This document shows positions 8,785 through 58,287 of a stretch of DNA of 64,000 nucleotides, piece after piece. Both the position numbers and the translations under genes were made by a program. Numbering within the stretch: the first letter of the stretch is position 1; each line of letters starts with the position of its first letter. The stretch comes from Nemertoderma westbladi (Eukaryota; Animalia; Xenacoelomorpha). The DNA is taken from the NCBI GenBank assembly GCA_032718475.1, contig JAUCBJ010008264.1, forward strand, positions 1-64,000. Direction: 5' to 3'. Below the pieces are notes generated by a model. It did not search any database, was not told the DNA's origin, and was given only the letters and a program-made list of their open reading frames with translations.

Positions 8785-10633
8785 CTAACTGGAAGTCCCT
8801 GGCTCGCAGCCAAACAAATTATTATAAAGATCGGAATTGTATTTTAATTCCCCGTGAACCGAATATCGATGTAGATTCAATAGACATTCCGAAACACAAT
8901 CTTTATTGCAGAGTTTACAAACGAACTCAGAAACCAATTTAGTTTTAAGATGACATGACTTATCGCAAGCCAGCTTATGGGTATCGAAGTCAGAATTGCT
9001 GGCGAAGCATTTTGAGCAGTTCTCGCATTTAATGACCTCTTCAATGCTTTCTTGCGATAGACTCCCCTGCTGATCACCACAAAGGTTAAGATCGTGTGCC
9101 GAGTTATTGTGCTCCTGCAGGAGAGTCGAGGACATAAACAACTCCCAACATGTCTCGCATTTGTAAAAGAGTTTGTGGCGTTTCTCCACGTGAGTGTTCA
9201 ATTCGGATTCATTCGAATACACGCTGGAGCAGAAATCGCAGGGAAGCGCTCTCACTGGATTCGAGTTCCGTGGGGAACAACGTTTGGTTGTCTTTCTACC
9301 TCGATGTTCATTTAGACCATTGCTGATGCGCTTATTGGATTGAGGTTTGGGTATATTTCTCTCAGTGCCGCTGTGGTAGTAACTTATATGACCTCGAATT
9401 GATTTGAGCGAATGAAATATTCTATCACTGTTCTCACAGAACTGGCATTTGTACGTGGTCGGTGGGAGAATGTTTCGTACGGATTTAATCATCTCATCGC
9501 GAATCGAAGTGAAGCAGTCGGTGCAGCAATGGATGTTTCGGTACTGTTTCGGTCGCAGATCCCAGGACGGGACCGAGGTAACGGGCTTGTGGCAGATGAC
9601 GCACGGCAGTCTGATGGCGGATTTGGTCTGCAGTTTAGAAGATGGTTTCTTATTGCGTAAAGTTTTACGTATTGGAGAATTTTGGGAGGAATCTCGTTTT
9701 ACAATTTCTGGCTTGGCCGATCCCGTTCTAGATGGTAATCCTAAAGTTGTCACTTTGGATATTGCAGTATCCAATCCTTGACTTGTCGTTACACATGGTT
9801 CCGCAATATCTGATTCTCGACTTGTTATACTTGGTTCCGCAATATCTGATACTCGACTTGTTACACTCGGTGTGACACCTTGTAAACTCTTTGTAAACAA
9901 GATATTATACTCTTGATTCGACAATGTTGGTTCCACACTATCATCTCTTGCACTTGTCACAATAATTGGTGACACAGTATCCGTCTCTTGACTTGTCACA
10001 ATTTGAGACATAGAATCCAATCCTCGACTTGTTGATTGAAAAATATCAAATTCTTGACTTTTTACAGTTGGCGTCACAGATTCTAATTCTAGACTTGCCA
10101 CAATTGGTGTCACAGTATTTGATTCTTGACTTGCCACAATTGGTGTCACAGTATCTGATTCTTGAATTGCCACAATTGGTGTCACAGTATCTGATTCTTG
10201 ACTTGCCACAATTGGTGTCACAGTATCTGATTCTTGACTTCCCACAATTGGTGTCACAGTATCTGATTCTTGACTTCCCACAATTGGTGTCACAGTTTCT
10301 AATTCTTGACTTGCCACAATTGGTGTCACAGATTCTATTTCTAGACTTGCCACAATTGGTGTCACAGTATTTGATTCTTGACTTGGCACAATTAGTGTCA
10401 CAGAATCTGATTCTTGACTTGCCACAATTGGTGTCACAGTTTCTGATTCTTGACTTGCCACAATTGGTGTCACAGATTCTATTTCTAGACTTGCCACAAT
10501 TGGTGTCACAGTTTCTAATTTTATAACACCTGGCGATAAAGTGTCTCGTCGAATCGAATTTATATAAGGGAGGCAACTTTCCAATCTGCAAATCGAAAAA
10601 CAACATTTTAAACCCACAGCAAGGAATAAGAAC
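8785..10633 (-). CDS. Multi-C2H2 zinc-finger gene, terminal exon (12-aa repeat region, one Cys-rich finger, ~5 C2H2/C2HC fingers)
   Basis: 610-aa ORF with fingers such as CDFC..HVEKRH, CETC..HNNSAH, CKLC..HRYSVH. The ORF start is a GTG; the frame extends to acceptor TTATTTCAG|G at 10634/10633 (phase 2); stop TAG at 8787-8785. Confidence 0.9.
10051..10518 (-). repeat. Coding minisatellite, 36 bp x 13, encoding (SDTVTPIVASQE)n
   Basis: 13 in-frame 12-aa units in the 610-aa ORF, followed by degenerate units down to ~9750. Confidence 0.95.
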
Positions 10634-13600
10634 CTGAAATAATTACATAAAAGGACAGTTGTTTATATATACGATTTGGATTTGGGTTTGGATTGAGATT
10701 CGGTTTTTGAAATCGGATTTGTAGCGGTGGTTAACTGGGATTTCAATAATTATTTATAATATCTTAGGTAATAATGATTTAATTACGGAATTTATTTTTC
10801 AAATAAAATATTAACAATCCGAAAAAATTAAAATAATGTTATGTGTCACTTTGGGTCACAGTAAAAATGATATGTATATGTTTTGGTTCTTATGCTAATT
10901 AATTGCTAAAACATTTGTTTGTTGTATACCCTTACATTATACCACTACCTACCCTTACATTATACCACTACCTACCCTTACATTATACCACTACCTACCC
11001 TTACATTATACCACTACCTACCCTTACATTATACCACTACCTACCCTTACATTATACCACTCTACCCTTACATTATACCACTACCTACACTTACATTATA
11101 CCACTACATACCCTTACATTATACCACTACCTACCCTTACATTATACCACTACCTACCCTTACATTATACGACTCTACCCTTACATTATACCACTACCTA
11201 CCCTTACATTATACCACTACCTACCCTTACATTATACCACTCTACCCTTACATTATAACACTACCTACCCTTACATTATACCACTACCTACCCTTACATT
11301 ATACCACCACCTACCCTTACATTATACCACTACCTACCCTTACATTATACCACCACCTACCCTTACATTATACCACTACCTACCCTTACATTATACCACT
11401 ACCTACCCTTACATTATACAACTACCTACCCTTACATTATACCACTCTACCCTTACATTATACCACTACCTACCCTTACATTATACCACTACCTACCCTT
11501 ACATTATACCACCACCTACCCTTACATTATACCACTACCTACCCTTACATTATACCACTACCTACCCTTACATTATACCACTCTACCCTTACATTATAAC
11601 ACTACCTACCCTTACATTATACCACTACCTACCCTTACATTATACCACCACCTACCCTTACATTATACCACTACCTACCCTTACATTATACCACCACCTA
11701 CACTTACATTATACCACTACCTACCCTTACATTATACCACTCTACCCTTACATTATACCACCACCTACACTTACATTATACCACTACCTACCCTTACATT
11801 ATACCACTCTACCCTTACATTATAACACTACCTACCCTTACATTATACCACTACCTACCCTTACATTATACCACCACCTACCCTTACATTATACCACTAC
11901 CTACCCTTACATTATACCACTACCTACCCTTACATTATACCACCACCTACCCTTACATTATACCACTACCTACCCTTAAATTATAACACTACCTACCCTT
12001 ACATTATACCACTACCTACCCTTACATTATACCACCACCTACACTTACATTATACCACTACCTACCCTTACATTATACCACTCTACCCTTACATTATACC
12101 ACTACATACCCTTACATTATACCACTAACTACCCTTACATTATACCACTACCTACCCTTACATTATACCACTCTACCCTTACATTATACGACTACCTACT
12201 GTACCTCTCACATTATACCACCACCTACCCTTACATTATACCACTACCTACCCTTACATTATACCACTACCTACCCTTACATTATACCACTCTACCCTTA
12301 CATTATACCACTACATACACTTACATTATACCACTACCTACCCTTACATTATACCACTCTACCCTTACATTATACCACTACCTACCCTTACATTATACCA
12401 CTACCTACCCTTACATTATACCACCACCTACCCTTACATTATACCACTACCTACCCTTACATTATACCACTACCTACCCTTACATTATACCACTCTACCC
12501 TTACATTATAACACTACCTACCCTTACATTATACCACTACCTACCCTTACATTATACCACCACCTACCCTTACATTATACCACTACCTACCCTTACATTA
12601 TACCACCACCTACACTTACATTATACCACTACCTACCCTTACATTATACCACTCTACCCTTACATTATAACACTACCTACCCTTACATTATACCACTACC
12701 TACCCTTACATTATACCACCACCTACCCTTACATTATACCACTACCTACCCTTACATTATACCACTACCTACCCTTACATTATACCACCACCTACCCTTA
12801 CATTATACCACTACCTACCCTTACATTATAACACTACCTACCCTTACATTATACCACTACCTACCCTTACATTATACCACCACCTACACTTACATTATAC
12901 CACTACCTACCCTTACATTATACCACTCTACCCTTACATTATACCACTACATACCCTTACATTATACCACTAACTACCCTTACATTATACCACTACCTAC
13001 CCTTACATTATACCACTCCTACCCTTACATTATACGACTACCTACTGTACCTCTCACATTATACCACCACCTACCCTTACATTATACCACTACCTACCCT
13101 TACATTATACCACTACCTACCCTTACATTATACCACTCTACCCTTACATTATACCACTACATACACTTACATTATACCACTACCTACCCTTACATTATAC
13201 CACCACCTACCCTTACATTATACCACTACCTACCCGTTACATTATACCACTACCTACCCTTACATTATACCACTACCTACCCTTACATTATACAACTACC
13301 TACCCTTACATTATACCACTCTACCCTTACATTATACCACTACCTACCCTTACATTATACCACTACCTACCCTTACATTATACCACCACCTACCCTTACA
13401 TTATACCACTACCTACCCTTACATTATACCACTACCTACCCTTACATTATACCACTCTACCCTTACATTATACCACTACCTACCCTTACATTATACCACT
13501 ACCTACCCTTACATTATACCACCACCTACCCTTACATTATACCACTACCTACCCTTACATTATACCACCACCTACACTTACATTATACCACTACCTACCC

Positions 13601-16600
13601 TTACATTATACCACTACCTACCCTTACATTATACCACTACCTACCCTTACATTATACCACTACCTACCCTTACATTATACCACCACCTACCCTTACATTA
13701 TACCACTACCTACCCTTACATTATACCACTACCTACCCTTACATTATACCACCACCTACACTTACATTATACCACTACCTACCCTTACATTATACCACTA
13801 CCTACCCTTACATTATACCACTACCTACCCTTACATTATACCACCACCTACACTTACATTATACCACTACCTACCCTTACATTATACCACTACCTACCCT
13901 TACATTATACCACCACCTACCCTTACATTATACCACTCTACCCTTACATTATACCACCACCTACACTTACATTATACCACTACCTACCCTTACATTATAC
14001 CACTACCTACCCTTACATTATACCACTACCTACCCTTACATTATACCACCACCTACCCTTACATTATACCACTACCTACCCTTACATTATACCACTACCT
14101 ACCCTTACATTATACCACTACCTACCCTTACATTATACCACCACCTACACTTACATTATACCACTCTACCCTTACATTATACCACCACCTACACTTACAT
14201 TATACCACTACCTACCCTTACATTATACCACTCCTACCCTTACATTATACCACTACATACCCTTACATTATACCACTACCTACCCTTACATTATACCACT
14301 CTACCCTTACATTATACGACTACCTACACTCTACATTATACCACCACCTACCCTTACATTATACCACTACCTACCCTTACATTATACCACTACCTACCCT
14401 TACATTATACCACTCTACCCTTACATTATACCACTACATACACTTACATTATACCACTACCTACCCTTACATTATACCACCACCTACCCTTACATTATAC
14501 CACTACCTACCGTTACATTATACCACTACCTACCCTTACATTATACCACTACCTACCCTTACATTATACAACTACCTACCCTTACATTATACCACTCTAC
14601 CCTTACATTATACCACTACCTACCCTTACATTATACCACTACCTACCCTTACATTATACCACCACCTACGCTTACATTATACCACTACCTACCCTTACAT
14701 TATACCACTACCTACCCTTACATTATACCACTACCTACCCTTACATTATACCACTACCTACCCTTACATTATACCACTACCTACCCTTACATTATACCAC
14801 CACCTACCCTTACATTATACCACTACCTACCCTTACATTATACCACCACCTACACTTACATTATACCACTACCTACCCTTACATTATACCACTCTACCCT
14901 TACATTATAACACTACCTACCCTTACATTATACCACTACCTACCCTTACATTATACCACCACCTACCCTTACATTATACCACTACCTACCCTTACATTAT
15001 ACCACTACCTACCCTTACATTATACCACCACCTACCCTTACATTATACCACTACCTACCCTTACATTATACCACTACCTACCCTTACATTATACCACTAC
15101 CTACCCTTACATTATACCACCACCTACCCTTACATTATACCACTACCTACCCTTACATTATACCACTACCTACCCTTACATTATACCACTACCTACCCTT
15201 ACATTATCCACCACCTACCTACACCACCTACCCTACATTATACCACTACCTACCCTTACATTATACCACTACCTACCCTTACATTATACCACCACCTACC
15301 CTTACATTATACCACTACCTACCCTTACATTATACCACCACCTACCCTTACATTATACCACCACCTACCCTTACATTATACCACTACCTACCCTTACATT
15401 ATACCACTACCTACCCTTACATTATACCACTCCTACCCTTACATTATACCACTACCTACCCTTACATTATACCACTACCTACCCTTACATTATACCACCA
15501 CCTACCCTTACATTATACCACTACCTACCCTTACATTATACCACCACCTACCCTTACATTATACCACTACCTACCCTTACATTATACCACTCTACCCTTA
15601 CATTATACCACTACCTACCCTTACATTATACCACTACCTACCCTTACATTATACCACCACCTACACTTACATTATACCACTACCTACCCTTACATTATAC
15701 CACCACCTACCCTTACATTATACCACTACCTACCCTTACATTATACCACTCTACCCTTACATTATACCACTACCTACCCTTACATTATACCACTACCTAC
15801 CCTTACATTATACCACCACCTACCCTTACATTATACCACTACCTACCCTTACATTATACCACCACCTACACTTACATTATACCACTACCTACCCTTACAT
15901 TATACCACTCTACCCTTACATTATACCACCACCTACCCTTACATTATACCACTACCTACCCTTACATTATACCACTACCTACCCTTACATTATACCACCA
16001 CCTACCCTTACATTATACCACTACCTACCCTTACATTATACCACTACCTACCCTTACATTATACCACTCTACCCTTACATTATAACACTACCTACCCTTA
16101 CATTATACCACTACCTACCCTTACATTATACCACTACCTACCCTTACATTATACCACTACCTACCCTTACATTATACCACTACCTACCCTTACATTATAC
16201 CACCACCTACACTTACATTATACCACTACCTACCCTTACATTATAACACTACCTACCCTTACATTATACCACTACCTACCCTTACATTATACCACCACCT
16301 ACCCTTACATTATACCACTACCTACCCTTACATTATACCACTACCTACCCTTACATTATACCACCACCTACCCTTACATTATACCACTACCTACCCTTAC
16401 ATTATAACACTACCTACCCTTACATTATACCACTACCTACCCTTACATTATACCACCACCTACCCTTACATTATACCACCACCTACCCTTACATTATAAC
16501 ACTACCTACCCTTACATTATACCACTCTACCCTTACATTATACCACTACATACCCTTACATTATACCACTAACTACCCTTACATTATACCACTACCTACC

Positions 16601-19600
16601 CTTACATTATACCACTCTACCCTTACATTATACGACTACCTACTGTACCTCTCACATTATACCACCACCTACCCTTACATTATACCACTACCTACCCTTA
16701 CATTATACCACTACCTACCCTTACATTATACCACTCTACCCTTACATTATACCACTACATACACTTACATTATACCACTACCTACCCTTACATTATACCA
16801 CCACCTACCCTTACATTATACCACTACCTACCGTTACATTATACCACTACCTACCCTTACATTATACCACTACCTACCCTTACATTATACCACTACCTAC
16901 CCTTACATTATACCACTACCTACCCTTACATTATACCATTACCTACCCTTACATTATACCACTACCTACCCTTACATTATACCATTACCTACCCTTACAT
17001 TATACCACTCTACCCTTACATTATACCACTACCTACCCTTACATTATACCACTACCTACCCTTACATTATACCACTACCTACCCTTACATTATACCACTA
17101 CCTACCCTTACATTATACCACCACCTACCCTTACATTATACCACTACCTACCCTTACATTATACCACTACCTACCCTTACATTATACCACCACCTACCCT
17201 TACATTATACCACTACCTACCCTTACATTATACCACTACCTACCCTTACATTATACCACTACCTACCGTTACATTATACCACTACCTACCCTTACATTAT
17301 ACCACCACCAGACTAACCACTCCTGCACTGGATAGAAACCACTACATACCCTTACATTATACCACCACCAGACTAACCACTCCTGCACTGGAAAGGAACC
17401 ACTACATACCCTTACATTATACCACTACCTACCCTTACATTATACCACTACCTACCCTTACATTATACCACCACCAGACTAACCACTCCTGCACTGGATA
17501 GGAACCACTACATACACTTACATTATATACCCTTACATTATACCACTACCTACCCTTACATTATATCACCACCAGACTAACCACTCCTGTACTGGATAGG
17601 AACCACTACATACCCTTACATTATACCACTACCTACCCTTACATTATACCACCACCTACCCTTACATTATACCAATACATACCCTTACATTATACCACCA
17701 CCTACACTTACATTATACCACTACCTACCCTTACATTATACCACTCTACCCTTACATTATACCACTACCTACCGTTACATTATACCACTACCTACCCTTA
17801 CATTATACCACCACCAGACTAACCACTCCTGCACTGGATAGAAACCACTACATACCCTTACATTATACAACCACCAGACTAACCACTCCTGCACTGGAAA
17901 GGAACCACTACATACCCTTACATTATGCCACTACCTACCCTTACATTATACCACTACCTACACTTACATTATACCACCACCTACCCTTACATTATACCAC
18001 TACCTACCCTTACATTATACCACCACCTACCCTTACATTATACCACCACCAGACTAACCACTCCTGCACTGGAAAGGAACCACTACATACCCTTACATTA
18101 TGCCACTACCTACCCTTGCATTATACCACTACCTACCCTTACATTATACCACCACCTACCCTTACATTATACCACTACCTACCCTTACATTATACCACCA
18201 CCTACACTTACATTATACCACTACCTACCCTTACATTATACCACTACCTACCCTTACATTATACCACTACCTACCATTACATTATACCACTACCTACCCT
18301 TACATTATACCACCACCAGACTAACCACTCCTGTACTGGATAGGAACCACTACATACACTTACATTATATACCCTTACATTATACCACTACCTACCCTTA
18401 CATTATATCACCACCAGACTAACCACTCCTGTACTGGATAGGAACTACTACATACCCTTACATTATACCACTACCTACCCTTACATTATACCACTACCTA
18501 CCGTTACATTATACCACTACCTACCCTTACATTATACCACCACCAGACTAACCACTCCTGCACTGGATAGAAACCACTACATACCCTTACATTATACCAC
18601 CACCAGACTAACCACTCCTGCACTGGAAAGGAACCACTACATACCCTTACATTATACCACTACCTACCCTTACATTATACCACTACCTACCCTTACATTA
18701 TACCACCACCAGACTAACCACTCCTGCACTGGATAGGAACCACTACATACACTTACATTATATACCCTTACATTATACCACTACCTACCCTTACATTATA
18801 TCACCACCAGACTAACCACTCCTGTACTGGATAGGAACCACTACATACACTTACATTATACCACTACCTACCCTTACATTATACCACCACCTACCCTTAC
18901 ATTATACCAATACATACCCTTACATTATACCACCACCTACACTTACATTATACCACTACCTACCCTTACATTATACCACTACCTACCCTTACATTATACC
19001 ACTACCTACCGTTACATTATACCACTACCTACCCTTACATTATACCACCACCAGACTAACCACTCCTGCACTGGATAGAAACCACTACATACCCTTACAT
19101 TATACCACCACCAGACTAACCACTCCTGCACTGGAAAGGAACCACTACATACCCTTACATTATACCACTACCTACCCTTACATTATACCACTACCTACCC
19201 TTACATTATACCACCACCAGACTAACCACTCCTGCACTGGATAGGAACCACTACATACACTTACATTATATACCCTTACATTATACCACTACCTACCCTT
19301 ACATTATATCACCACCAGACTAACCACTCCTGTACTGGATAGGAACCACTACATACCCTTACATTATACCACTACCTACCCTTACATTATACCACCACCT
19401 ACCCTTACATTATACCAATACATACCCTTACATTATACCACCACCTACACTTACATTATACCACTACCTACCCTTACATTATACCACTCTACCCTTACAT
19501 TATACCACTACCTACCGTTACATTATACCACTACCTACCCTTACATTATACCACCACCAGACTAACCACTCCTGCACTGGATAGAAACCACTACATACCC

Positions 19601-22600
19601 TTACATTATACCACCACCAGACTAACCACTCCTGCACTGGAAAGGAACAACTACATACCCTTACATTATACCACTACCTACCCTTACATTATACCACTAC
19701 CTACCCTTACATTATACCACCACCAGACTAACCACTCCTGCACTGGATAGGAACCACTACATACACTTACATTATATACCCTTACATTATACCACTACCT
19801 ACCCTTACATTATACCACCACCAGACTAACCACTCCTGCACTGGATAGAAACCACTACATACCCTTACATTATACCACCACCAGACTAACCACTCCTGCA
19901 CTGGATAGAAACCACTACATACCCTTACATTATACCACCACCAGACTAACCACTCCTGCACTGGAAAGGAACCACTACATACCCTTACATTATGCCACTA
20001 CCTACCCTTACATTATACCACTACCTACACTTACATTATACCACCACCTACCCTTACATTATACCACTACCTACCCTTACATTATACCACCACCTACCCT
20101 TACATTATACCACCACCAGACTAACCACTCCTGCACTGGAAAGGAACCACTACATACCCTTACATTATGCCACTACCTACCCTTGCATTATACCACTACC
20201 TACCCTTACATTATACCACCACCTACCCTTACATTATACCACTACCTACCCTTACATTATACCACCACCTACACTTACATTATACCACTACCTACCCTTA
20301 CATTATACCACTACCTACCCTTACATTATACCACTACCTACCATTACATTATACCACTACCTACCCTTACATTATACCACCACCAGACTAACCACTCCTG
20401 TACTGGATAGGAACCACTACATACACTTACATTATATACCCTTACATTATACCACTACCTACCCTTACATTATATCACCACCAGACTAACCACTCCTGTA
20501 CTGGATAGGAACCACTACATACCCTTACATTATACCACTACCTACCCTTACATTATACCACTACCTACCGTTACATTATACCACTACCTACCCTTACATT
20601 ATACCACCACCAGACTAACCACTCCTGCACTGGATAGAAACCACTACATACCCTTACATTATACCACCACCAGACTAACCACTCCTGCACTGGAAAGGAA
20701 CCACTACATACCCTTACATTATACCACTACCTACCCTTACATTACACCACTACCTACCCTTACATTATACCACCACCAGACTAACCACTCCTGCACTGGA
20801 TAGGAACCACTACATACACTTACATTATATACCCTTACATTATACCACTACCTACCCTTACATTATATCACCACCAGACTAACCACTCCTGTACTGGATA
20901 GGAACCACTACATACCTTTACATTATACCATTACATACCCTTACATTATACCACTACCTACCCTTACATTATACCACTGCCTACCCTTACATTATACCAC
21001 CACCAGACTAACCACTCCTGCACTGGATAGAAACCACTACATACCCTTACATTATACCACCACCAGACTAACCACTCCTGCACTGGAAAGGAACCACTAC
21101 ATACCCTTACATTATACCACTACCTACCCTTACATTATACCACTACCTACCCTTACATTATACCACTACCTACCGTTACATTATACCACTACCTACCCTT
21201 ACATTATACCACTACCTACCCTTACATTATACCACTACCTACCCTTACATTACACCACTACCTACCCTTACATTATACCACCACCAGACTAACCACTCCT
21301 GCACTGGATAGAAACCACTACATACCCTTACATTATACCACCACCAGACTAACCACTCCTGCACTGGAAAGGAACCACTACATACCCTTACATTATACCA
21401 CTACCTACCCTTACATTATACCACTACCTACCCTTACATTATACCACCACCAGACTAACCACTCCTGCACTGGATAGGAACCACTACATACACTTACATT
21501 ATATACCCTTACATTATACCACTACCTACCCTTACATTATATCACCACCAGACTAACCACTCCTGTACTGGATAGGAACCACTACATACCCTTACATTAT
21601 ACCACTACCTACCCTTACATTATACCACTACCTACCCTTACATTATACCACTACCTACCCTTACATTATACCACCACCAGACTAACCACTCCTGCACTGG
21701 ATAGAAACCACTACATACCCTTACATTATACCACCACCAGACTAACCACTCCTGCACTGGAAAGGAACCACTACATACCCTTACATTATACCACTACCTA
21801 CCCTTACATTATACCACTACCTACCCTTACATTATACCACCACCAGACTAACCACTCCTGCACTGGATAGGAACCACTACATACACTTACATTATATACC
21901 CTTACATTATACCACTACCTACCCTTACATTATATCACCACCAGACTAACCACTCCTGTACTGGATAGGAACCACTACATACCCTTACATTATACCACTA
22001 CCTACCCTTACATTATACCACTACCTACCCTTACATTATACCACTACCTACCCTTACATTATACCACCACCAGACTAACCACTCCTGTACTGGATAGGAA
22101 CCACTACATACCCTTACATTATACCACTACCTACCCTTACATTATACCACTACCTACCCTTACATTATACCACTACCTACCCTTACATTATACCACTCTA
22201 CCCTTACATTATACCACTACCTACCCTTACATTATACCACTACCTACCCTTACATTATACCAATACATACCCTTACATTATACCACCACCTACACTTACA
22301 TTATACCACTACCTACACTTACATTATACCACTACCTACCCTTACATTATACCACTACCTACCCTTACATTATACCACTACCTACCCTTACATTATACCA
22401 ATACATACCCTTACATTATACCACTACCTACCCTTACATTATACCACTACCTACCCTTACATTATACCACTACCTACCCTTACATTATACCACCACCTAC
22501 ACTTACATTATACCACTACCTACACTTACATTATACCACTACATACCCTTACATTATACCACTACCTACCCTTACATTATACCACTACCTACCCTTACAT

Positions 22601-43600: not shown

Positions 43601-46600
43601 CCTTACATTATACCACTACCTACCCTTACATTATACCACTACCTACCCTTACATTATACCAATACATACCCTTACATTATACCACCACCTACACTTACAT
43701 TATACCACTACCTACACTTACATTATACCACTACCTACCCTTACATTATACCACTACCTACCCTTACATTATACCACTACCTACCCTTACATTATACCAA
43801 TACATACCCTTACATTATACCACCACCTACACTTACATTATACCACTACCTACACTTACATTATACCACTACCTACCCTTACATTATACCACTACCTACC
43901 CTTACATTATACCACTACCTACCCTTACATTATACCACTACCTACCCTTACATTATACCACCACCTACCCTTACATTATACCACTACCTACCGTTACATT
44001 ATACCACTACCTACCCTTACATTATACCACTACCTACCCTTACATTATACCACTACCTACCCTTACATTATACCACCACCAGACTAACCACTCCTGTACT
44101 GGATAGGAACCACTACATACCTTTACATTATACCACTACCTACCCTTACATTATACTACTACCTACCCTTACATTATACCACTACCTACCCTTACATTAT
44201 ACCACCACCAGACTAACCACTCCTGTACTGGATAGGAACCACTACATACCCTTACATTATACCACTACCTACCATTACATTATACCACTACCTACCCTTA
44301 CATTATACCACTACCTACCCTTACATTATACCACTACCTACCCTTACATTATACCACCACCAGACTAACCACTCCTGTACTGGATAGGAACCACTACATA
44401 CCCTTACATTATACCACTACCTACCATTACATTATACCACTACCTACCCTTACATTATACCACCACCAGACTAACCACTCCTGCACTGGATAGGAACCAC
44501 TACATACCCTTACATTATACCACTACCTACCCTTACATTATACCACTACCTACCCTTACATTATACCACCACCAGACTAACCACTCCTGTACTGGATAGG
44601 AACCACTACATACCCTTACATTATACCACTACCTACCATTACATTATACCACTACCTACCCTTACATTATACCACCACCAGACTAACCACTCCTGCACTG
44701 GATAGGAACCACTACATACCCTTACATTATACCACTACCTACCCTTACATTATACCACTACCTACCCTTACATTATACCACCACCAGACTAACCACTCCT
44801 GTACTGGATAGGAACCACTACATACCCTTACATTATACCACTACCTACCATTACATTATACCACTACCTACCCTTACATTATACCACCACCAGACTAACC
44901 ACTCCTGCACTGGATAGGAACCACTACATACCCTTACATTATACCACTACCTACCCTTACATTATACCACTACCTACCCTTACATTATACCACTACCTAC
45001 CCTTACATTATACCACCACCAGACTAACCACTCCTGCACTGGATAGGAACCACTACATACCCTTACATTATACCACTACCTACCCTTACATTATACCACT
45101 ACCTACCCTTACATTATACCACTACCTACCCTTACATTATACCACCACCAGACTAACCACTCCTGTACTGGATAGGAACCACTACATACCCTTACATTAT
45201 ACCACTACCTACCCTTACATTATACCACTACCTACCCTTACATTATACCATTACCTACCGTTACATTATACCACTACCTACCCTTACATTATACCACTAC
45301 CTACCCTTACATTATACCATTACCTACCGTTACATTATACCACTACCTACCGTTACATTATACCATTACCTACCCTTACATTACACCACTACCTACCCTT
45401 ACATTATACCACCACCAGACTAACCACTCCTGTACTGGATAGGAACCACTACATACCCTTACATTATACCACTACCTACCCTTACATTATACCACTACCT
45501 ACCCTTTCATTATACCACTACCTACCCTTACATTATACCACCACCTACCCTTACATTATACCACTACCTACCCTTACATTATACCACCACCTACCCTTAC
45601 ATTATACCACTACCTACCCTTACATTATACCACTACCTACCCTTACATTATACCACTACCTACCCTTACATTATACCACTACCTACCCTTACATTATACC
45701 ACTACCTACCCTTACATTATACCACTACCTACCCTTACATTATACCACTACCTACCCTTACATTATACCACTACCTACCCTTACATTATACCACTACCTA
45801 CCCTTACATTATACCACCACATACCCTTACATTATACCACTACCTACCCTTACATTATACCACTACCTACCCTTACATTATACCACTACCTACCCTTACA
45901 TTATACCACCACCTACCCTTACATTATACCACCACCTACCCTTACATTATACCACTACCTACCCTTACATTATACCACTACCTACCCTTACATTATACCA
46001 CTACCTACCCTTACATTATACCACTACCTACCCTTACATTATACCACCACCTACCCTTACATTATACCACTACCTACCCTTACATTATACCACTACCTAC
46101 CCTTACATTATACCACTACCTACCCTTACATTATACCACTACCTACCCTTACATTATACCACTACCTACCCTTACATTATACCACTACCTACCCTTACAT
46201 TATACCACTACCTACCCTTACATTATACCACCACATACCCTTACATTATACCACTACCTACCCTTACATTATACCACTACCTACCCTTACATTATACCAC
46301 TACCTACCCTTACATTATACCACCACCTACCCTTACATTATACCACTACCTACCCTTACATTATACCACTACCTACCCTTACATTATACCACTACCTACC
46401 CTTACATTATACCACTACCTACCCTTACATTATACCACTACCTACCCTTACATTATACCACTACCTACCCTTACATTATACCACTACCTACCCTTACATT
46501 ATACCACTACCTACCCTTACATTATACCACTACCTACCCTTACATTATACCACTACCTACCCTTACATTATACTACTACCTACCCTTACATTATACCACT

Positions 46601-49600
46601 ACCTACCCTTACATTATACCACTACCTACCCTTACATTATACCACTACCTACCCTTACATTATACCACTACCTACCCTTACATTATACCACTACCTACCC
46701 TTACATTATACCACTACCTACCCTTACATTATACCACTACCTACCCTTACATTATACCACCACATACCCTTACATTATACCACTACCTACCCTTACATTA
46801 TACCACTACCTACCCTTACATTATACCACTACCTACCCTTACATTATACCACTACCTACCCTTACATTATACCACTACCTACCCTTACATTATACCACTA
46901 CCTACCCTTACATTATACCACTACCTACCCTTACATTATACCACTACCTACCCTTACATTATACCACCACATACCCTTACATTATACCACTACCTACCCT
47001 TACATTATACCACTACCTACCCTTACATTATACCACTACCTACCCTTACATTATACCACCACCTACCCTTACATTATACCACCACCTACCCTTACATTAT
47101 ACCACTACCTACCCTTACATTATACCACTACCTACCCTTACATTATACCACTACCTACCCTTACATTATACCACTACCTACCCTTACATTATACCACTAC
47201 CTACCGTTACATTATACCACTACCTACCCTTACATTATACCACTACCTACCCTTACATTATACCACTACCTACCCTTACATTATACCATTACCTACCCTT
47301 ACATTACACCACTACCTACCCTTACATTATACCACCACCAGACTAACCACTCCTGTACTGGATAGGAACCACTACATACCTTTACATTATACCATTACCT
47401 ACCCTTACATTATACCACTACCTACCCTTTCATTATACCACTACCTACCGTTACATTATACCACCACCTACCCTTACATTATACCACTACCTACCCTTAC
47501 ATTATACCACTACCTACCCTTACATTATACCACTACCTACCCTTACATTATACCACTACCTACCCTTACATTATACCACTACCTACCCTTACATTATACC
47601 ACTACCTACCCTTACATTATACCACTACCTACCCTTACATTATACCACTACCTACCCTTACATTATACCACTACCTACCCTTACATTATACCACTACCTA
47701 CCCTTACATTATACCACTACCTACCCTTACATTATACCATTACCTACCCTTACATTACACCACTACCTACCCTTACATTATACCACCACCAGACTAACCA
47801 CTCCTGTACTGGATAGGAACCACTACATACCTTTACATTATACCATTACCTACCCTTACATTATACCACTACCTACCCTTTCATTATACCACTACCTACC
47901 GTTACATTATACCACCACCTACCCTTACATTATACCACTACCTACCCTTACATTATACCACTACCTACCCTTACATTATACCACTACCTACCCTTACATT
48001 ATACCACTACCTACCCTTACATTATACCACTACCTACCCTTACATTATACCACTACCTACCCTTACATTATACCACTACCTACCCTTACATTATACCACT
48101 ACCTACCCTTACATTATACCATTACCTACCCTTACATTACACCACTACCTACCCTTACATTATACCACCACCAGACTAACCACTCCTGTACTGGATAGGA
48201 ACCACTACATACCTTTACATTATACCATTACCTACCCTTACATTATACCACTACCTACCCTTACATTATACCACTACCTACCCTTACATTATACCACCAC
48301 CTACCCTTAAATTATACCACCACCAGACTAACCACTCCTGTACTGGATAGGAACCACTACATACCTTTACATTATACCATTACCTACCCTTACATTATAC
48401 CACTACCTACCCTTACATTACACCACTACCTACCCTTACATTATACCACCACCAGACTAACCACTCCTGTACTGGATAGGAACCACTACATACCTTTACA
48501 TTATACCACTACCTACCCTTACATTATACCACTACCTACCCTTACATTATACCACTACCTACCCTTACATTATACCACTACCTACCCTTACATTATACCA
48601 CTACCTACCCTTACATTATACCACTACCTACCCTTACATTATACCACCACCAGACTAACCACTCCTGTACTGGATAGGAACCACTACATACCTTTACATT
48701 ATACCACTACCTACCCTTACATTATACCACTACCTACCCTTACATTATACCACTACCTACCCTTACATTATACCACTACCTACCCTTACATTATACCACT
48801 ACCTACCCTTACATTATACCACTACCTACCCTTACATTATATACCCTTACATTATACCACTACCTACCCTTACATTATAACACCACCAGACTAACCACTC
48901 CTGCACTGGATAGGAACCACTACATACCTTTACATTATACCACTACCTACCCTTACATTATACCACTACCTACCCTTACATTATACCACTACCTACCCTT
49001 ACATTATACCACTACCTACCCTTACATTATACCACTACCTACCCTTACATTATACCACTACCTACCCTTACATTACACCACTACCTACCCTTACATTATA
49101 CCACTACCTACCCTTACATTATACCACTACCTACCCTTACATTACACCACTACCTACCCTTACATTATACCACTACCTACCCTTACATTACACCACTACC
49201 TACCCTTACATTATACCACTACCTACCCTTACATTATACCACTACCTACCCTTACATTACACCACTACCTACCCTTACATTATACCACTACCTACCCTTA
49301 CATTATACCACTACCTACCCTTACATTATACCACTACCTACCCTTACATTACACCACTACCTACCCTTACATTACACCACTACCTACCCTTACATTATAC
49401 CACTACCTACCCTTACATTATACCACTACCTACCCTTACATTACACCACTACCTACCCTTACATTATACCACTACCTACCCTTACATTATACCACTACCT
49501 ACCCTTACATTATACCACTACCTACCCTTACATTATACCACTACCTACCCTTACATTACACCACTACCTACCCTTACATTATACCACTACCTACCCTTAC

Positions 49601-52600
49601 ATTATACCACTACCTACCCTTACATTACACCACTACCTACCCTTACATTATACCACTACCTACCCTTACATTATACCACTACCTACCCTTACATTACACC
49701 ACTACCTACCCTTACATTATACCACTACCTACCCTTACATTATACCACTACCTACCCTTACATTATACCACTACCTACCCTTACATTATACCACTACCTA
49801 CCCTTACATTACACCACTACCTACCCTTACATTATACCACTACCTACCCTTACATTATACCACTACCTACCCTTACATTATACCACCACCAGACTAACCA
49901 CTCCTGTACTGGATAGGAACCACTACATACCTTTACATTATACCACTACCTACCCTTACATTATACCACTACCTACCCTTACATTATACCACTACCTACC
50001 CTTACATTATACCACTACCTACCCTTACATTATACCACTACCTACCCTTACATTATACCACTACCTACCCTTACATTATATACCCTTACATTATACCACT
50101 ACCTACCCTTACATTATAACACCACCAGACTAACCACTCCTGCACTGGATAGGAACCACTACATACCTTTACATTATACCACTACCTACCCTTACATTAT
50201 ACCACTACCTACCCTTACATTATACCACTACCTACCCTTACATTATACCACTACCTACCCTTACATTATACCACTACCTACCCTTACATTACACCACTAC
50301 CTACCCTTACATTATACCACTACCTACCCTTACATTACACCACTACCTACCCTTACATTATACCACTACCTACCCTTACATTATACCACTACCTACCCTT
50401 ACATTATACCACTACCTACCCTTACATTATACCACTACCTACCCTTACATTACACCACTACCTACCCTTACATTATACCACTACCTACCCTTACATTACA
50501 CCACTACCTACCCTTACATTATACCACCACCAGACTAACCACTCCTGTACTGGATAGGAACCACTACATACCTTTACATTATACCACTACCTACCCTTAC
50601 ATTATACCACTACCTACCCTTACATTACACCACTACCTACCCTTACATTATACCACCACCAGACTAACCACTCCTGTACTGGATAGGAACCACTACATAC
50701 CTTTACATTATACCACTACCTACCCTTACATTATACCACTACCTACCCTTACATTATACCACTACCTACCCTTACATTACACCACTACCTACCCTTACAT
50801 TATACCACCACCAGACTAACCACTCCTGTACTGGATAGGAACCACTACATACCTTTACATTATACCATTACCTACCCTTACATTATACCACTACCTACCC
50901 TTTCATTATACCACTACCTACCCTTACATTACACCACTACCTACCCTTACATTATACCACCACCAGACTAACCACTCCTGTACTGGATAGGAACCACTAC
51001 ATACCTTTACATTATACCATTACCTACCCTTACATTATACCACTACCTACCGTTACATTATACCACCACCTACCCTTACATTATACCACTACCTACCCTT
51101 ACATTATACCACTACCTACCCTTACATTATACCACTACCTACCCTTACATTATACCACTACCTACCCTTACATTATACCACTACCTACCCTTACATTATA
51201 CCACTACCTACCCTTACATTATACCACTACCTACCCTTACATTATACCACTACCTACCCTTACATTATACCACTACCTACCCTTACATTATACCACTACC
51301 TACCCTTACATTATACCACTACCTACCCTTACATTATACCACTCTACCCTTACATTATACCACCACCTACCCTTACATTATACCACCACCTACCCTTACA
51401 TTATACCACTACCTACCCTTTCATTATACCACTACCTACCCTTACATTATACCACTACCTACCCTTACATTATACCACTATACCCTTACATTATACCACT
51501 ACCTACCCTTACATTATACCACTACCTACCCTTACATTATACCACTACCTACCCTTACATTATACCACTACCTACCCTTACATTATACCACTACCTACCC
51601 TTACATTATACCACTACCTACCCTTACATTATACCACTACCTACCCTTACATTATACCACCACCTACCCTTACATTATACCACTACCTACCCTTACATTA
51701 TACCACTACCTACCCTTACATTATACCACCACATACCCTTACATTATACCACTACCTACCCTTACATTATACCACTACCTACCCTTACATTATACCACTA
51801 CCTACCCTTACATTATACCACTACCTACCCTTACATTATACCACTCTACCCTTACATTATACCACTACCTACCATTACATTATACCACCACCTACCCTTA
51901 CATTATACCACTACCTACCCTTACATTATACCACTACCTACCCTTACATTATACCACCACCTACCCTTACATTATACCACTACCTACCCTTACATTATAC
52001 CACTACCTACCCTTACATTATACCACTACCTACCCTTACATTATACCACTACCTACCCTTACATTATACCACTACCTACCCTTACATTATACCACTACCT
52101 ACCCTTACATTATACCACTACCTACCCTTACATTATACCACTACCTACCCTTACATTATACCACTACCTACCCTTACATTATACCACTACCTACCCTTAC
52201 ATTATACCACTACCTACCCTTACATTATACCACCACATACCCTTACATTATACCACTACCTACCCTTACATTATACCACTCTACCCTTACATTATACCAC
52301 TACCTACCCTTACATTATACCACTACCTACCCTTACATTATACCACTACCTACCCTTACATTATACCACTACCTACCCTTACATTATACCACTACCTACC
52401 CTTACATTATACCACTACCTACCCTTACATTATACCACTACCTACCCTTACATTATACCACTACCTACCCTTACATTATACCACTACCTACCCTTACATT
52501 ATACCACTCTACCCTTACATTATACCACTACCTACCATTACATTATACCACCACCTACCCTTACATTATACCACTACCTACCCTTACATTATACCACTAC

Positions 52601-53243
52601 CTACCCTTACATTATACCACCACCTACCCTTACATTATACCACTACCTACCCTTACATTATACCACTACCTACCCTTACATTATACCACTACCTACCCTT
52701 ACATTATACCACTACCTACCCTTACATTATACCACTACCTACCCTTACATTATACCACTACCTACCCTTACATTATACCACTACCTACCCTTACATTATA
52801 CCACTACCTACCCTTACATTATACCACTACCTACCCTTACATTATACCACTACCTACCCTTACATTATACCACTACCTACCCTTACATTATACCACCACA
52901 TACCCTTACATTATACCACTACCTACCCTTACATTATACCACTCTACCCTTACATTATACCACTACCTACCCTTACATTATACCACTACCTACCCTTACA
53001 TTATACCACTACCTACCCTTACATTATACCACTACCTACCCTTACATTATACCACTACCTACCCTTACATTATACCACTACCTACCCTTACATTATACCA
53101 CTACCTACCCTTACATTATACCACTACCTACCCTTACATTATACCACTACCTACCATTACATTATACCACTACCTACCCTTACATTATACCACCACCAGA
53201 CTAACCACTCCTGCACTGTATAGGAACCTCTACCTATACCCAC
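10634..53243 (-). other. 42,610-bp GT-AG intron filled by satellite
   Basis: Donor AG|GTGGGT at 53244/53243 and acceptor TTTCAG|G at 10634/10633 are both phase 2; the join reads RRKRN-R-FLFLAVGLK. Confidence 0.82.
10925..53240. repeat. Satellite array, 23-bp monomer CCCTTACATTATACCACTACCTA with 21-, 15- and 60-bp variants, ~42.3 kb
   Basis: Period 23 (CTTACATTAT at 10931, 10954, ...); 60-bp variant carries CAGACTAACCACTCCTG(C/T)ACTGGA(T/A)AG(G/A)AAC; single orientation throughout; roughly 1,600-1,800 units (estimate). Confidence 0.99.
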
Positions 53244-53425
53244 CTATTTCGCTTTCGTCTTACAATCTCATCTTCTAGACTTTGCCATTTGTTTTTGGGT
53301 TTATTCGGTTCAATAGATGCTGTTGGCGTTGCCATAGAAACTGGTCGAGTCTCTATGAGATCCTTTCCGGAATATTCAGCAATCTGGCGAACAATAACTG
53401 ATTTATATGATGAGTCATAAGAGAC
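53244..53425 (-). CDS. Zinc-finger gene internal exon (182 bp)
   Basis: CTTCTAG|GTC acceptor (phase 0); open frame VSYDSSYKSVIVRQIAEYSGKDLIETRPVSMATPTASIEPNKPKNKWQSLEDEIVRRKRN plus AG; donor GTGGGT. Not in the ORF track. Confidence 0.85.
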
Positions 53426-53504
53426 CTAGAAGTAGCTAAACCTATTAACCAACAGTATGTAAGTCTCAATTTAAACATTTCTAAATATTCAATACTGTTT
53501 TTAC

Positions 53505-53826
53505 CTTTATATCGGGTTCTATACCAGAAACTTCCTTTTCCATATCAATTTGTTCCCGATTGCTATCCATTACTGATCGGCCTATTTCACAATCTAAGTC
53601 AACGATAGAAGACTGACTACCATTTAATGCTGTTTGAGAGCTATCCTCATCTTCATCTTCTTGACTTAGATAACGATCCAAAAGTACTTGGCATATATCC
53701 CCGTGTTCCATTGGTTCATCGTCTATGGAGTCTTCATTCATCTCTAGATCATCTACAAGTACTTCGGTTTCATCATCGGGTTCTCCATTATAAAGAACCT
53801 CGTCGTTATTATATCGGGTTATCTTC
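53505..53826 (-). CDS. Zinc-finger gene internal acidic exon (322 bp)
   Basis: Part of the 133-aa ORF; acceptor TATTATAG|G (phase 2; an alternative in-phase CAG lies at 53863); donor AAG|GTAAAA (phase 0); followed by a 79-bp intron. Confidence 0.82.
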
Positions 53827-54801: not shown

Positions 54802-54960
54802 TGGGGTTTTTGCGTGAATGTCAGTTTTTTTGTGTATTTTTTTGGCGTCCAGTAATCAGCTGTTATTTGCGTCGATTATTGCGTCGAGACCCCCCCCCCC
54901 GCACACCCCTTTCCATCTGATAATAATATGCTATACAGCAGACAGCCCACACCTACATAC

Positions 54961-55076
54961 CTTGAAGAAACAATATCTTCGCTGTCGCAGCCTTGAACGC
55001 ATTCAGTGGCGTAATCATTAATGTTTGTTAGCGAATCAGGTAGACCGACGCCTTCTATTGGATATTCAATTGAATT
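54961..55076 (-). CDS. Zinc-finger gene internal exon (116 bp)
   Basis: ATTTTAG|AAT acceptor (phase 0); NSIEYPIEGVGLPDSLTNINDYATECVQGCDSEDIVSS plus AG; donor GTATGT (phase 2); both phases match the neighbouring exons. Confidence 0.82.
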
Positions 55077-55730
55077 CTAAAATATATCAATTAAATATCT
55101 CAATTTATTTCAGACTAGTTTAAGTAATATTTGGACCGGCCTAGCAACACCAGCCACTATACAACCACTATTCAGCTAAAATATCGAATCCAAAATTCTT
55201 GATATTTCGTGATAAAATATAATATCGGGTTGGGTATATACAACTACATATACAACTGAGGCGAGTATACTGACACGATACCTATCTCGGTCGGTATATA
55301 TGACACAACCCTTGAGTCAAACTGTGTCAGGTATATGTTCAGGTGTTTGGGGCGTGTCATGCGACATGGCGAGTCCATTCACAAAAAAAATAATTAAAAA
55401 AAAACAATAAATAATAAAAAAAACATGTAAAAAAACAAAACATAATTTAATATTAATTAATATTGCATTAATACCTCACCTAACCCTCAATTTAACAATT
55501 TTATTTATCATAATTTATAAATTTAAAATATTATTGTTGGTATAATCCATCAAGGCCTTCTAGGACATATTATTTATTCAATAAATCCAATAAGTAAAAT
55601 TTATATATTAAATAAATACAATGTTCTATTGTCATAAAGTGTTTTACTAAAATAAAGGCACATTATCATATTGTGACGTGACAGCCCCCCTCCCCACATC
55701 AACATTGTAGATCCCCCTCAATCTATTGAC

Positions 55731-55912: not shown

Positions 55913-58287
55913 CTCTTCTCCGTTTAAGCAATTGTCTTGGATTGATTCACTAAAAACGTTTGGAGATACCAAACTGTTTGGGACATCTGGAGAAATGATT
56001 AACTTGATGCGTTTCGGTTGATCAAATATTGAGGGGTCTGAAAGACCGGACTCCAACGCTGGACCAGGTAAATCGCGTTGATGCCCGTATATGAATTGCT
56101 GAGTGACACCCGATGTCGTGGGTTGAGGTATAATCCGGTTATCGGAAGCAACTGGTTCACTATCAGCTTCCAGTGGAATTCTAACAACCAGTTTTACGTT
56201 TCTTTCCACTGCAGAAGATGGGAGGCAGTAGCCACTGAAGGGCGTAGAGTTCGTGGGTATTCTAACAATATATTTACTTTGGGGGTTTGTAGTTACTGGA
56301 AGCAGTGGTCGCTGCTGTGGAGACGACGTATCATACATTGTCGGTTTATTAGTAATATGAAGTGATCTTTCGGATTCTTTAGGAATATTATTTTCAAGCG
56401 GGAAAGCATTATTGGACACATCCAAAAAACCGCTATTAATTTTTTGATTTTTATGGATAAATATGTGATTCTTTAGAGATGCGGCCAATTGATAACGTTT
56501 GTCACACACTGGACAAATATGACCAGTGCGTTTGATAAAAGACTGTATGGTGCAATTTAAACCATTCTTTCTATTTATGGAGTGGGAAACTACATGAAAT
56601 ATAAGTGATGACTCATCATCAAAACCATCTCCGCAAAAATGACAATAAAAACGCCAATGTTTAATAAAACCCAAAGGGAAAACTCCTTTTTCTGGAATAT
56701 TTGAACTGCCTTTAGATGCTCCATTAACTTGTTGCGCAATTTCACTGCACTCATTTTCATTATCACGGCTATCATTAGCAATAGATTGAGGTGGGTTAAG
56801 GCTGGAATTATTTGTCATTTTATTATTACCAAGAGCAAGACATGTCCTTAATCCGTGGTGATTTGTAATCAACACGCCCACAGTAACACTTCGCGACAGA
56901 TGTACCCCTGGATGCGTCTTTGATAAATGGTTAGAAAGTTCCGAGATTGAAGTGAATATTAAAAAACAGCCGGAACACATAAACCGGGATGGAATAGCCA
57001 AAACCTCCTTGAGAGAGGCGAATGCATGCGACCGATGCCAGGGAGAGCTAGAGTTCAATTCCGGAAAAGATTTTTTTGGAATGCTGTGGGCCAGTTGAAT
57101 GTGTAGAGGCAATAGCTTAGCATTTGGAAATACTGTGCTGCAAAAAAGACATACAGAAAATGTACCAACACTTTTCTTGCCATGAGATTTTGATAAATGT
57201 TTCGCAAGAACTTGCATCTGTGGGAAGACCCTCGGGCAATAGTCGCAAATAAATGGATACTCGGACATGTGCGTTTTAACATGAATGCTAAGAGATTCAT
57301 CACAGCCGAATGTTATGCCACAAGTGTAACAACGGCTTTGGGGTTTATGAGTATGGTAGGTTTTCAATATGTGACAATACAAACTGTGCCTCTTGGAGAA
57401 AGTGAATGAACAGCGCTGGCAGCACAGAGTCTTACCCTCCACGTGGTTGAACAAAATGTGATTTTGTTGTTGGACATAGGTTTGAAATACTACACCACAA
57501 AACTCGCAAGGAAACCACACATTGTGAGTATGAGTGGTCGACATGTGCTCTGACAAAGATACATAGTCTAACAATGTCTTATTGCACATGAGACAAGTAA
57601 TATCTTCGTTATTCTCATGGGAGGGCGATTCGCTCAAACCAGACTTTGTAATATTAGCAATAACGTCCAAACACTTGTTTAATCTTTTAATACTTGAAGA
57701 TCCTGATGGTTTTTTGCCTGATGGGATTTTGGCGGAACTGTGAAGAGGAAATTGTACTTGAGTACTATGATTGTGAACCTCAAAGATATGTTTGTTGAGA
57801 AGATTCAATGATGTAAATCCGAATTTGGCACAAAGTTGACATCGAAGTACCTCGTTCCGCATTAGATCAGCCAAATGAACCTCAAGATCTACTTTTGTGT
57901 TGAACGTTCCCCCACAATGAGTGCAGTTTATACAAGTATTGTCATTATTAGCGAAGGTGTGAATTTGCTTGTGCAACTGTAAGTTATGTAAGTAGTTAAA
58001 TTCAACCCTGCAAGAGTCACATTTAAATTCCCGGTCTGCGAAATGACTCCATATATGGGCATCTAGGGCTGCTAACGTCTGAAATTCCTGGTTGTCACAG
58101 AATCGACACACTGTATCAACAGGACTGTTTCTGGATAGATCTGAGGTTGAGGTTTGCGATTCGTCTCTGGATTTGGGTAAAGCTGGTTGTTGATTTTGTA
58201 GATGAGGTTGCATTGGTTCAGAATTTGCTGCAATTGATGATGATGACCTGATGAGGGCAGTAGAATCTTTCAAGGAAGGTGCACCAC
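55913..58287 (-). CDS. Zinc-finger gene large exon with ~12 C2H2 fingers plus one degenerate finger
   Basis: 809-aa ORF (CRFC..HIWSH, CDSC..HKQIH, CDYC..HLSKSH, CPVC..HIFIH, etc.); acceptor CCTATTTTAG|GT at 58288/58287 (phase 1); donor GAG|GTTTGT at 55913/55912 (phase 0). Confidence 0.92.

What the first reader, a model, noticed from the sequence alone, without database searches (positions are those of the whole stretch)
8785..58287. One zinc-finger gene spliced across a 42.6-kb intron that is almost pure satellite
Seen: five exons chain with GT-AG sites and matching phases (0,2,0,2), totalling 4,844 nt and >1,600 codons with no stop. Two of the exons are invisible to the ORF track. The last junction (AG|GTGGGT at 53244; TTTCAG|G at 10633) spans the whole array, while the other introns are only 79 bp to ~1.1 kb. 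Known: satellite-filled giant introns occur in Drosophila Y-linked fertility genes (kl-3, kl-5), which need dedicated RNA-binding factors. Inference: this is intron gigantism by satellite expansion in an apparently intact transcription-factor gene, which forces Pol II and the spliceosome through ~42 kb of repeat and may impose a transcriptional delay or an expression threshold.
Basis: partly seen in the sequence, partly recalled or inferred. Interest (0 to 1): 0.9.

Follow-up and report, generated by a model that had tools for sequence, protein, structure and literature searches.

The report
Splice-donor repeat swells an intron
A 42-kb tandem repeat that starts at a splice donor sits between two halves of what is likely one zinc-finger gene, so the cell would have to splice across about 3,000 look-alike donor sites, but that splice has not been seen in RNA and the repeat likely differs in length between individuals.

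Summary
The gene model checks out: five minus-strand GT-AG exons, 4,844 nt, 1,613 codons plus stop, introns of 836, 1,134, 79 and 42,610 nt, the last 99.3% tandem repeat. It lacks its start codon. DNA contigs from two studies join each flank to the array. One run that I infer to be RNA fits the intron-2 splice exactly. The giant junction itself is unshown, and a second in-phase acceptor lies at 10585.

This is not kl-3-type gigantism (megabase introns). It resembles the ABCA7 and CACNA1C intronic VNTRs. The intron's first ~60 nt, from the donor on, are a diverged repeat unit. The array holds 2,986 donor-like sites, 330 acceptor-like sites and no AATAAA or ATTAAA. Rough depth ratios suggest 25-39 kb of repeat in one sample and about 16 kb in another, not the 85 kb of a fixed allele.

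Best reading: an ordinary ~350-nt intron inflated by a locus-specific, probably polymorphic minisatellite and tolerated, not selected as a timer. No orthologue was found. This scan has noted satellite-filled introns in other genomes.

The parts
55913..58287 (-). Modelled exon 1 (internal exon, acceptor-bounded), 791 codons, 12 C2H2-pattern matches
   Evidence: PF13894 84.2 bits, PF00096 49.1 bits, both above cut-off; run X4 record 20 leaves the genomic sequence exactly at 58287 with 408 further letters
54961..55076 (-). Modelled exon 2, 116 nt
   Evidence: donor fits X4 contig geometry; its acceptor is not shown, X4 record 17 runs on to 55339
53505..53826 (-). Modelled exon 3, 322 nt, acidic
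   Evidence: X4 record 15 length fits the 54961-to-53826 splice
53244..53425 (-). Modelled exon 4, 182 nt; phase-2 donor at 53243; in-frame stop at 53236-53234 if read through
53183..53243 (-). First ~60 nt of intron 4: a diverged copy of the 60-nt repeat unit that begins at the donor
   Evidence: alignment
10927..53243 (.). Minisatellite array, 42,317 nt: about 1,420 short units (mostly 23 nt) and 166 60-nt units; sense strand G-rich (GC skew +0.88); 2,986 donor-like GT sites; 330 acceptor-like AG sites in the 60-mers; no AATAAA or ATTAAA
20936..32918 (.). Exact 5,555-nt repeat pair inside the array (20936-26490 and 27364-32918), recent duplication or assembly artefact
10634..10926 (-). Unique AT-rich 3' part of intron 4, 293 nt, with AATAAA at 10796, ATTAAA at 10783 and the acceptor at 10634
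   Evidence: identical in X1 and X2 contigs, and in X3 over 10635-10919
10585..10633 (-). Two in-phase candidate acceptors, exon start 10633 or 10585
8785..10633 (-). Modelled terminal exon, 615 codons plus stop; first in-frame ATG at 10011; 4 C2H2-pattern matches near the end; AATAAA at 8750
10050..10520 (-). 36-nt coding tandem repeat, 13 copies, inside the terminal exon

Best explanation
Two zinc-finger coding blocks on one strand are separated by a 42.3-kb minisatellite that starts at a splice donor, and they are likely one gene whose once ordinary intron (about 350 nt, inferred) was inflated by this repeat and is likely still spliced out. Shown: the array's edge unit is a diverged 60-mer beginning at the donor, and deleting 37 nt between two short direct repeats in the 60-mer yields an observed 23-mer. 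Inferred history: the donor-proximal 60 nt were duplicated in tandem, the 23-mer arose by deletion, and slippage plus unequal exchange built multi-kb higher-order copies. Inferred working: Pol II reads through because the array's sense strand has no canonical poly(A) signal; the true donor wins because it is the first phase-2 donor behind the exon-4 acceptor (exon definition); the decoy donors mostly lack a usable upstream acceptor; use of a downstream donor or of a 60-mer micro-exon would add a stop or frameshift and likely be removed by nonsense-mediated decay. The array is likely confined to this locus, likely variable in length, and tolerated rather than selected.
For: Model arithmetic. 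Stop 8 nt behind the donor, stop 29 nt before the acceptor, first in-frame ATG about 207 codons into the last exon, both candidate acceptors need phase 2, and the only phase-2 donor among 8 GT sites listed around exon 4 is the modelled one. An open frame over the 71 non-redundant codons upstream of that ATG has a rough chance of 0.004. Exon-like GC in all five exons. X1 and X2 contigs run from the last exon into the array and from the array edge through exon 4. Listed loose ends at the array are only 60-mer variants, 1 row not shown. Repeat depth does not exceed what this one array explains. X4, inferred RNA, leaves the genome at the exon-1 acceptor and fits the intron-2 splice. Of 7 exonic differences listed, 3 are synonymous, 4 missense, none a stop (table cut, 45 rows not shown). 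Precedent: ABCA7 VNTR, CACNA1C repeat of 3-30+ kb.
Against: The exon 4-5 junction was not observed in any run. No orthologue ties the halves together. X4 also holds unspliced sequence of introns 1 and 2 and shows no branch at the exon-2 acceptor, so part of the upstream chain is unshown too. In the 36-nt coding repeat 0 of 10 variants are synonymous in the gene frame against 25% possible, while 4 of 10 are synonymous in another open frame: no sign of purifying selection there. 177 array sites match U1 better than the true donor and about 2,810 match equally. 48% of the array lies in exact repeats of 1 kb or more, so its assembled length is uncertain. X1 may be the source sample and so not independent. 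The tool warns that contig depth is not a copy number.
Confidence: 0.6

Rival explanations
1. The gene and array are real but the assembly overstates the length; the true intron is some 8-25 kb.
For: An exact 5,555-nt duplication and 48% of the array in exact repeats of 1 kb or more. Depth per repeat copy is 0.30-0.40 of the deeper unique contigs in X1 and about 0.2 in X3.
Against: In X1 the depth per copy (10.0-10.3 in 4 of 4 records) matches the 10.9 of the contig identical to the window's flank, as expected if one haplotype carries about 39 kb. Most higher-order copies differ by point variants. G-rich repeats can be under-sequenced (own knowledge).
Confidence: 0.15
2. Two transcription units: an upstream gene ending at the stop 8 nt into the repeat, and a downstream gene starting in the 293 unique bases or in the array and translated from the ATG at 10011.
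For: No junction seen and no fused homologue. A TATA-like hexamer lies at 10667 and poly(A) hexamers at 10796 and 10783. Each half would keep zinc fingers.
Against: The upstream gene would have no AATAAA or ATTAAA for 42 kb. The frame is open about 207 codons upstream of the ATG, with exon-like GC and two in-phase acceptors. 293 AT-rich bases leave little room for a terminator and a promoter, and TATA-like words are expected by chance there.
Confidence: 0.1
3. The 42-kb haplotype is a damaged allele: short alleles splice normally, but on this one decoy donors and 60-mer micro-exons cut the yield of full-length mRNA.
For: ABCA7 shows use of the next unit's donor and lower expression with longer alleles. 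330 acceptor-like sites in the 60-mers have 7-10 pyrimidines of 11, like the five modelled acceptors with 7-9, and would add stops or frameshifts.
Against: All five exons of this haplotype are free of stops and frameshifts. No allele-specific RNA data.
Confidence: 0.08
4. Selected intron gigantism as in the Drosophila Y fertility genes: the array is kept as a transcriptional timer or threshold and needs dedicated RNA-binding factors.
For: The intron is 99.3% repeat in an apparently intact gene. The unit has two donor-like sites, which 851 of 20,000 shuffles (4%) reach.
Against: About 100-fold smaller than the kl-3 span of at least 4.3 Mb. The delay would be 11-43 minutes. Length appears to differ between samples. 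Origin from the donor region itself explains donor-like motifs without selection.
Confidence: 0.07

Closest known systems
ABCA7 intron-18 VNTR, human (De Roeck 2018, PMC5954066; passages read)
   Same: A 25-bp unit that begins at and includes the splice donor; use of a cryptic donor one unit downstream gives a premature stop; alleles vary widely.
   Different: Largest ABCA7 allele there is 10,678 bp (about 427 units); here 42,317 bp, about 1,590 units of two sizes with multi-kb higher-order copies and acceptor-like sites. Splicing effects are measured for ABCA7 and unmeasured here.
CACNA1C TRACT 30-bp intronic VNTR, human (PMC13131567; abstract read)
   Same: Locus-specific intronic minisatellite of tens of kb (3-30+ kb) with short and long allele classes.
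   Different: The abstract does not describe it as donor-derived. Here the array makes up 99% of the intron in a gene whose other modelled introns are 79-1,134 nt.
Intron gigantism of Drosophila kl-3 and kl-5 (PMC6508621 passages; PMC6508613 part 1 of 2; PMC11207136 passages)
   Same: An intron made almost wholly of tandem repeat that would have to be transcribed and spliced out.
   Different: Those are hundreds of kb to Mb of simple satellites such as (AATAT)n, Y-linked, spermatocyte-specific, taking about 90 h and needing Blanks and Heph. Here 42.6 kb of 23/60-nt units; linkage, tissue and factors unknown.
Multi-C2H2 zinc-finger proteins (PF00096, PF13894)
   Same: Exon 1 passes both Pfam cut-offs; the last exon's best hits are generic zinc-finger proteins at 25-38% identity.
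   Different: No orthologue or named subfamily found; the last exon alone passes no Pfam cut-off.

Membership tests
Intron gigantism (kl-3/kl-5 type) | Introns of hundreds of kb to megabases | tested here: not met
   42,610 nt against definitions
Intron gigantism (kl-3/kl-5 type) | Repeat makes up over 99% of the locus | tested here: not met
   99.3% of intron 4 but about 85% of the modelled 49.5-kb span
Intron gigantism (kl-3/kl-5 type) | [quoted passage not shown] | tested here: inconclusive
   No run on record as RNA; inferred RNA run X4 does not cover the junction
Intron gigantism (kl-3/kl-5 type) | Y linkage, germline-restricted expression, dedicated RNA-binding factors, visible loops | not testable with these tools
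   No genome held for the window; no expression data
Donor-containing intronic VNTR (ABCA7 type) | Array starts at and includes the exon's splice donor | tested here: met
   First ~60 nt of the intron align to the 60-mer with 4 mismatches and a 2-nt insertion
Donor-containing intronic VNTR (ABCA7 type) | Units carry donor-like sites | tested here: met
   2,986 GT sites with at least 6 of 9 matches to the recalled U1 consensus, 70.6 per kb against 2.6-3.6 per kb elsewhere; a sequence match, not use
Donor-containing intronic VNTR (ABCA7 type) | Length varies between individuals | tested here: inconclusive
   Depth ratios differ about 2- to 3.5-fold between two samples, but contig depth is no reliable copy number
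Donor-containing intronic VNTR (ABCA7 type) | Length changes splicing or expression | not testable with these tools
   No allele-resolved RNA
Recursive splicing (ratchet points) | Pyrimidine tract plus AG directly followed by GT | tested here: not met
   The TAG-GT sites of the 23-mers have at most 4 pyrimidines of 11 upstream; the pyrimidine-rich AG sites in the 60-mers are not directly followed by GT. Definition recalled.
C2H2 zinc-finger protein | C2H2 profile matches above curated cut-off | tested here: met
   Exon 1: PF13894 84.2 bits (cut-off 27), PF00096 49.1 (25.2); last exon below cut-off; 16 pattern matches in the chained frame

The most novel reading that the evidence does not exclude
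A splice donor has amplified itself into a self-tolerating giant intron: thousands of U1-binding sites and no poly(A) signal keep transcription going through 42 kb, and natural alleles from a few kb to 42 kb tune the ratio of full-length to C-terminally truncated zinc-finger protein, giving a ready-made allelic series for how a spliceosome picks one donor among 3,000 equals. A bolder version is U1-site-promoted trans-splicing, as reported for Drosophila mod(mdg4) (PMC4387717, abstract).
Probability: 0.12. Interest if true: 0.75.

Novelty: new member of a known kind. Interest (0 to 1): 0.42.

Why it matters
If the junction is real, an animal gene with otherwise small introns splices correctly across 42 kb holding about 3,000 donor-like and 330 acceptor-like sites. 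That is about four times the longest ABCA7 allele reported in the paper read. If alleles differ in length, the locus allows a direct test of how intron length and decoy density affect donor choice and mRNA yield in one gene. It also shows a simple route to a large intron: tandem amplification of the donor-proximal sequence. Gene finders with intron-size limits would likely split this gene.

Tried and rejected
Whole genome: none held, so no genome-wide search for the repeat, paralogues or upstream exons. Sequencing runs: no RNA holder listed among 8 runs. X4 has no contig on exon 4, on the start of the last exon or on the repeat; these holes are not used as evidence. X8 laid nothing. The letters of X4's loose parts were not among the rows shown, so the upstream exon could not be placed; a scan of 58330-64000 gave 8 weak phase-1 donor candidates, none convincing.

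Homologues: last exon, longer proteins 0 of 404 candidates, near lengths 0 of 1,636; exon 1, near lengths 0 of 5,412 at E 1e-20 (a strict cut-off); whole-library search gave 692 hits at E 0.001, none at 1e-30, best 33% identity; of 8 of these looked up, 4 clusters carried names, all generic zinc-finger or unnamed proteins of wasp and scallop; Atlas gave only generic C2H2 clusters; metagenome contigs 0 of 32 stretches. Rfam: no match.

The open frames on the plus strand of the array are an effect of a unit almost without G and are not taken as a gene. An alternative exon-3 acceptor at 53822 was considered; the 30-letter overlaps of X4 records 15-17 fit the modelled one. Selection test on the 36-nt repeat was inconclusive. 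Absence of AATAAA in a 23-nt unit is expected by chance and is not read as selection. Canonical recursive splice sites: not found. Literature searches listed no paper on this locus or on a donor-derived array of this size outside humans; the library lacks most subscription journals, and supplements were not read. Earlier scan notes: none for this genome or this protein.
Full report
Observation. The window holds a tandem array from 10927 to about 53243. The array is 42,317 nt, 99.3% of intron 4, leaving 293 unique bases at the 3' end. Exon GC is 0.38-0.42, unique intron GC 0.26-0.31. The frame has 16 C2H2-pattern matches, 12 in exon 1 and 4 in the last exon; exon 1 passes two Pfam cut-offs, the last exon none. 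The model has no start codon: exon 1 begins at an acceptor. The host is an animal by inference (spliceosomal introns, multi-finger gene, gypsy and LINE remains); the lineage was not determined and no genome is held.

Is it one gene? From sequence: exon 4's frame stops 8 nt behind its donor, the last exon's frame opens 29 nt before its acceptor, and its first in-frame ATG is at 10011, about 207 codons in. Counting the 36-nt repeat once, 71 codons are open upstream of that ATG, a rough chance of 0.004. Of 8 GT sites listed around exon 4 only the modelled one is phase 2, and both good acceptors at the start of the last exon, 10633 and 10585, need phase 2. Against: the 36-nt repeat shows 0 of 10 synonymous variants in the gene frame (25% possible) and 4 of 10 in another open frame, which is inconclusive but not supportive. 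No homologue joins or separates the halves.

Public runs. Eight runs were listed, 4 holding the gene, none on record as RNA. X1 and X2 behave as DNA: their contigs run through introns 1-3, from the array edge through exon 4, and from the last exon through the 293 unique bases into the array up to 10954 with no differences. Loose ends listed at the array are 60-mer variants only (1 row not shown), so no foreign flank was seen. X1 may be the source sample; X2 and X3 are one sample of another study. X4 is labelled 'DNA?' but I infer RNA: record 20 leaves the genome exactly at the exon-1 acceptor 58287 with 408 further letters, and record 15 (206 nt, 176 laid to 53825) together with records 16 and 17 overlapping at 54960-54989 fits the splice 54961 to 53826 to the base. 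The loose letters were not displayed, so this rests on lengths. X4 also holds unspliced parts of introns 1 and 2 and no branch at the exon-2 acceptor. The giant junction was not covered and stays unshown.

Length. For four X1 repeat contigs, depth divided by the k-mer count in the window is 10.0-10.3; for two X3 contigs 0.87-0.88. Unique contigs have depth 25.5, 32.3 and 34.2, but also 11.7 and 10.9, in X1, and 4.48 in X3. By hand: 25-34 kb of repeat over both haplotypes in X1 (39 kb if 10.9 is the depth of one haplotype carrying it all) and about 16 kb in X3, against 85 kb for a fixed allele. Summed depth in X2 is 0.28 of X1 at similar unique depth. The tool warns that such depth is no copy number, and library bias is possible. 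The figures suggest tens of kb of repeat, no larger reservoir elsewhere in the genome, and variation between individuals or an inflated assembly. The array has an exact 5,555-nt duplication and 48% lies in exact repeats of 1 kb or more.

Anatomy and origin. The array has about 1,420 short units, mostly 23 nt, and 166 60-nt units. The first ~60 nt of the intron, starting at the donor, align to the 60-mer with 4 mismatches and a 2-nt insertion. Removing 37 nt between two short direct repeats in the 60-mer gives a 23-mer seen 12 times, one base from the commonest unit (read). I infer that the donor-proximal sequence of a roughly 350-nt intron was duplicated, shortened and amplified. The sense strand is G-rich (skew +0.88), which would favour R-loops (own knowledge, untested). 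It has 2,986 GT sites with at least 6 of 9 matches to the recalled U1 consensus, 70.6 per kb against 2.6-3.6 elsewhere; the true donor scores 6 and 177 sites score 7. 4% of shuffled units reach two such sites. The 60-mers give 330 AG sites with 7-10 pyrimidines of 11, the modelled acceptors 7-9; exons built from them would stop or shift the frame. Of 12 recalled poly(A) hexamers only one minor variant occurs in the array (5 times); AATAAA and ATTAAA lie at 10796 and 10783. No canonical recursive splice site was found.

Mechanism. Most likely (0.6) the intron is transcribed through and removed in one step, the first donor behind the exon-4 acceptor being chosen by exon definition, with mis-spliced products lost to decay. 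U1 binding might also shield the poly(A) signals near the acceptor, as in telescripting (PMC5499120, search listing only). All of these steps are inferred. Rivals are an inflated assembly (0.15), two units (0.10), a damaged long allele (0.08) and a selected timer (0.07).

Comparison. kl-3 spans at least 4.3 Mb with megabase introns of simple satellites, takes about 90 h and needs Blanks and Heph (PMC6508621 passages; PMC6508613 part 1 of 2; PMC11207136 passages). This intron fails that size test. It looks like the ABCA7 VNTR, whose 25-bp unit includes the exon-18 donor, ranges from 298 to 10,678 bp and shows cryptic-donor use (PMC5954066 passages; also PMC10078293 passages), and matches the CACNA1C repeat in scale, 3-30+ kb (PMC13131567 abstract). 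Eight searches listed nothing on this locus. Earlier notes of this scan describe a 12.1-kb repeat-filled intron and two large intronic arrays in other genomes (unchecked).

Verdict. A real, extreme, probably polymorphic donor-derived intronic minisatellite in a likely intact zinc-finger gene: a new member of a known kind, interest 0.42, with the key junction still to be shown.

Noticed in passing
window 62441-64000 (-): Gypsy-type integrase frame, 520 codons open to the window end (PF17921, PF00665, PF22938), on the gene's strand and probably inside its unplaced first intron.
   Followed up: partly
window 60264-61319 (+): Fragmented LINE reverse transcriptase in three frames (PF00078 on the first piece).
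   Followed up: partly
window 54550-54790: Very high-copy element in intron 2 with joints between opposite strands at 54581 and 54772, MITE-like.
   Followed up: no
window 98-871: 68-nt tandem repeat, 11 copies, whose unit matches about 61 nt of the intron-2 element near 54640-54700 at 79-80%: possibly a transposon-derived minisatellite.
   Followed up: partly
window 59346-59628: Extremely high-copy short repeat, summed depth about 155,000 in X1 and X2.
   Followed up: no
window 4766-5012 and 5350-5602; 6329-6645: A 253-nt inverted pair at 90% identity and a self-palindromic element of about 320 nt.
   Followed up: no
window 10049-10642 (-): Second open frame of 198 codons over the 36-nt repeat, with ATG at 10606 and a Cys-containing 12-residue unit; 4 of 10 repeat variants are synonymous in it.
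   Followed up: partly
window 55077-55339 and 54856-54960: The inferred RNA run X4 covers these intronic stretches next to exon 2: retained introns, a longer exon 2 or an internal start.
   Followed up: no
window 53443-53459: X1 and X2 contigs carry about 53 extra bases in the 79-nt intron 3 relative to the window (pieces of records 1 and 8).
   Followed up: no
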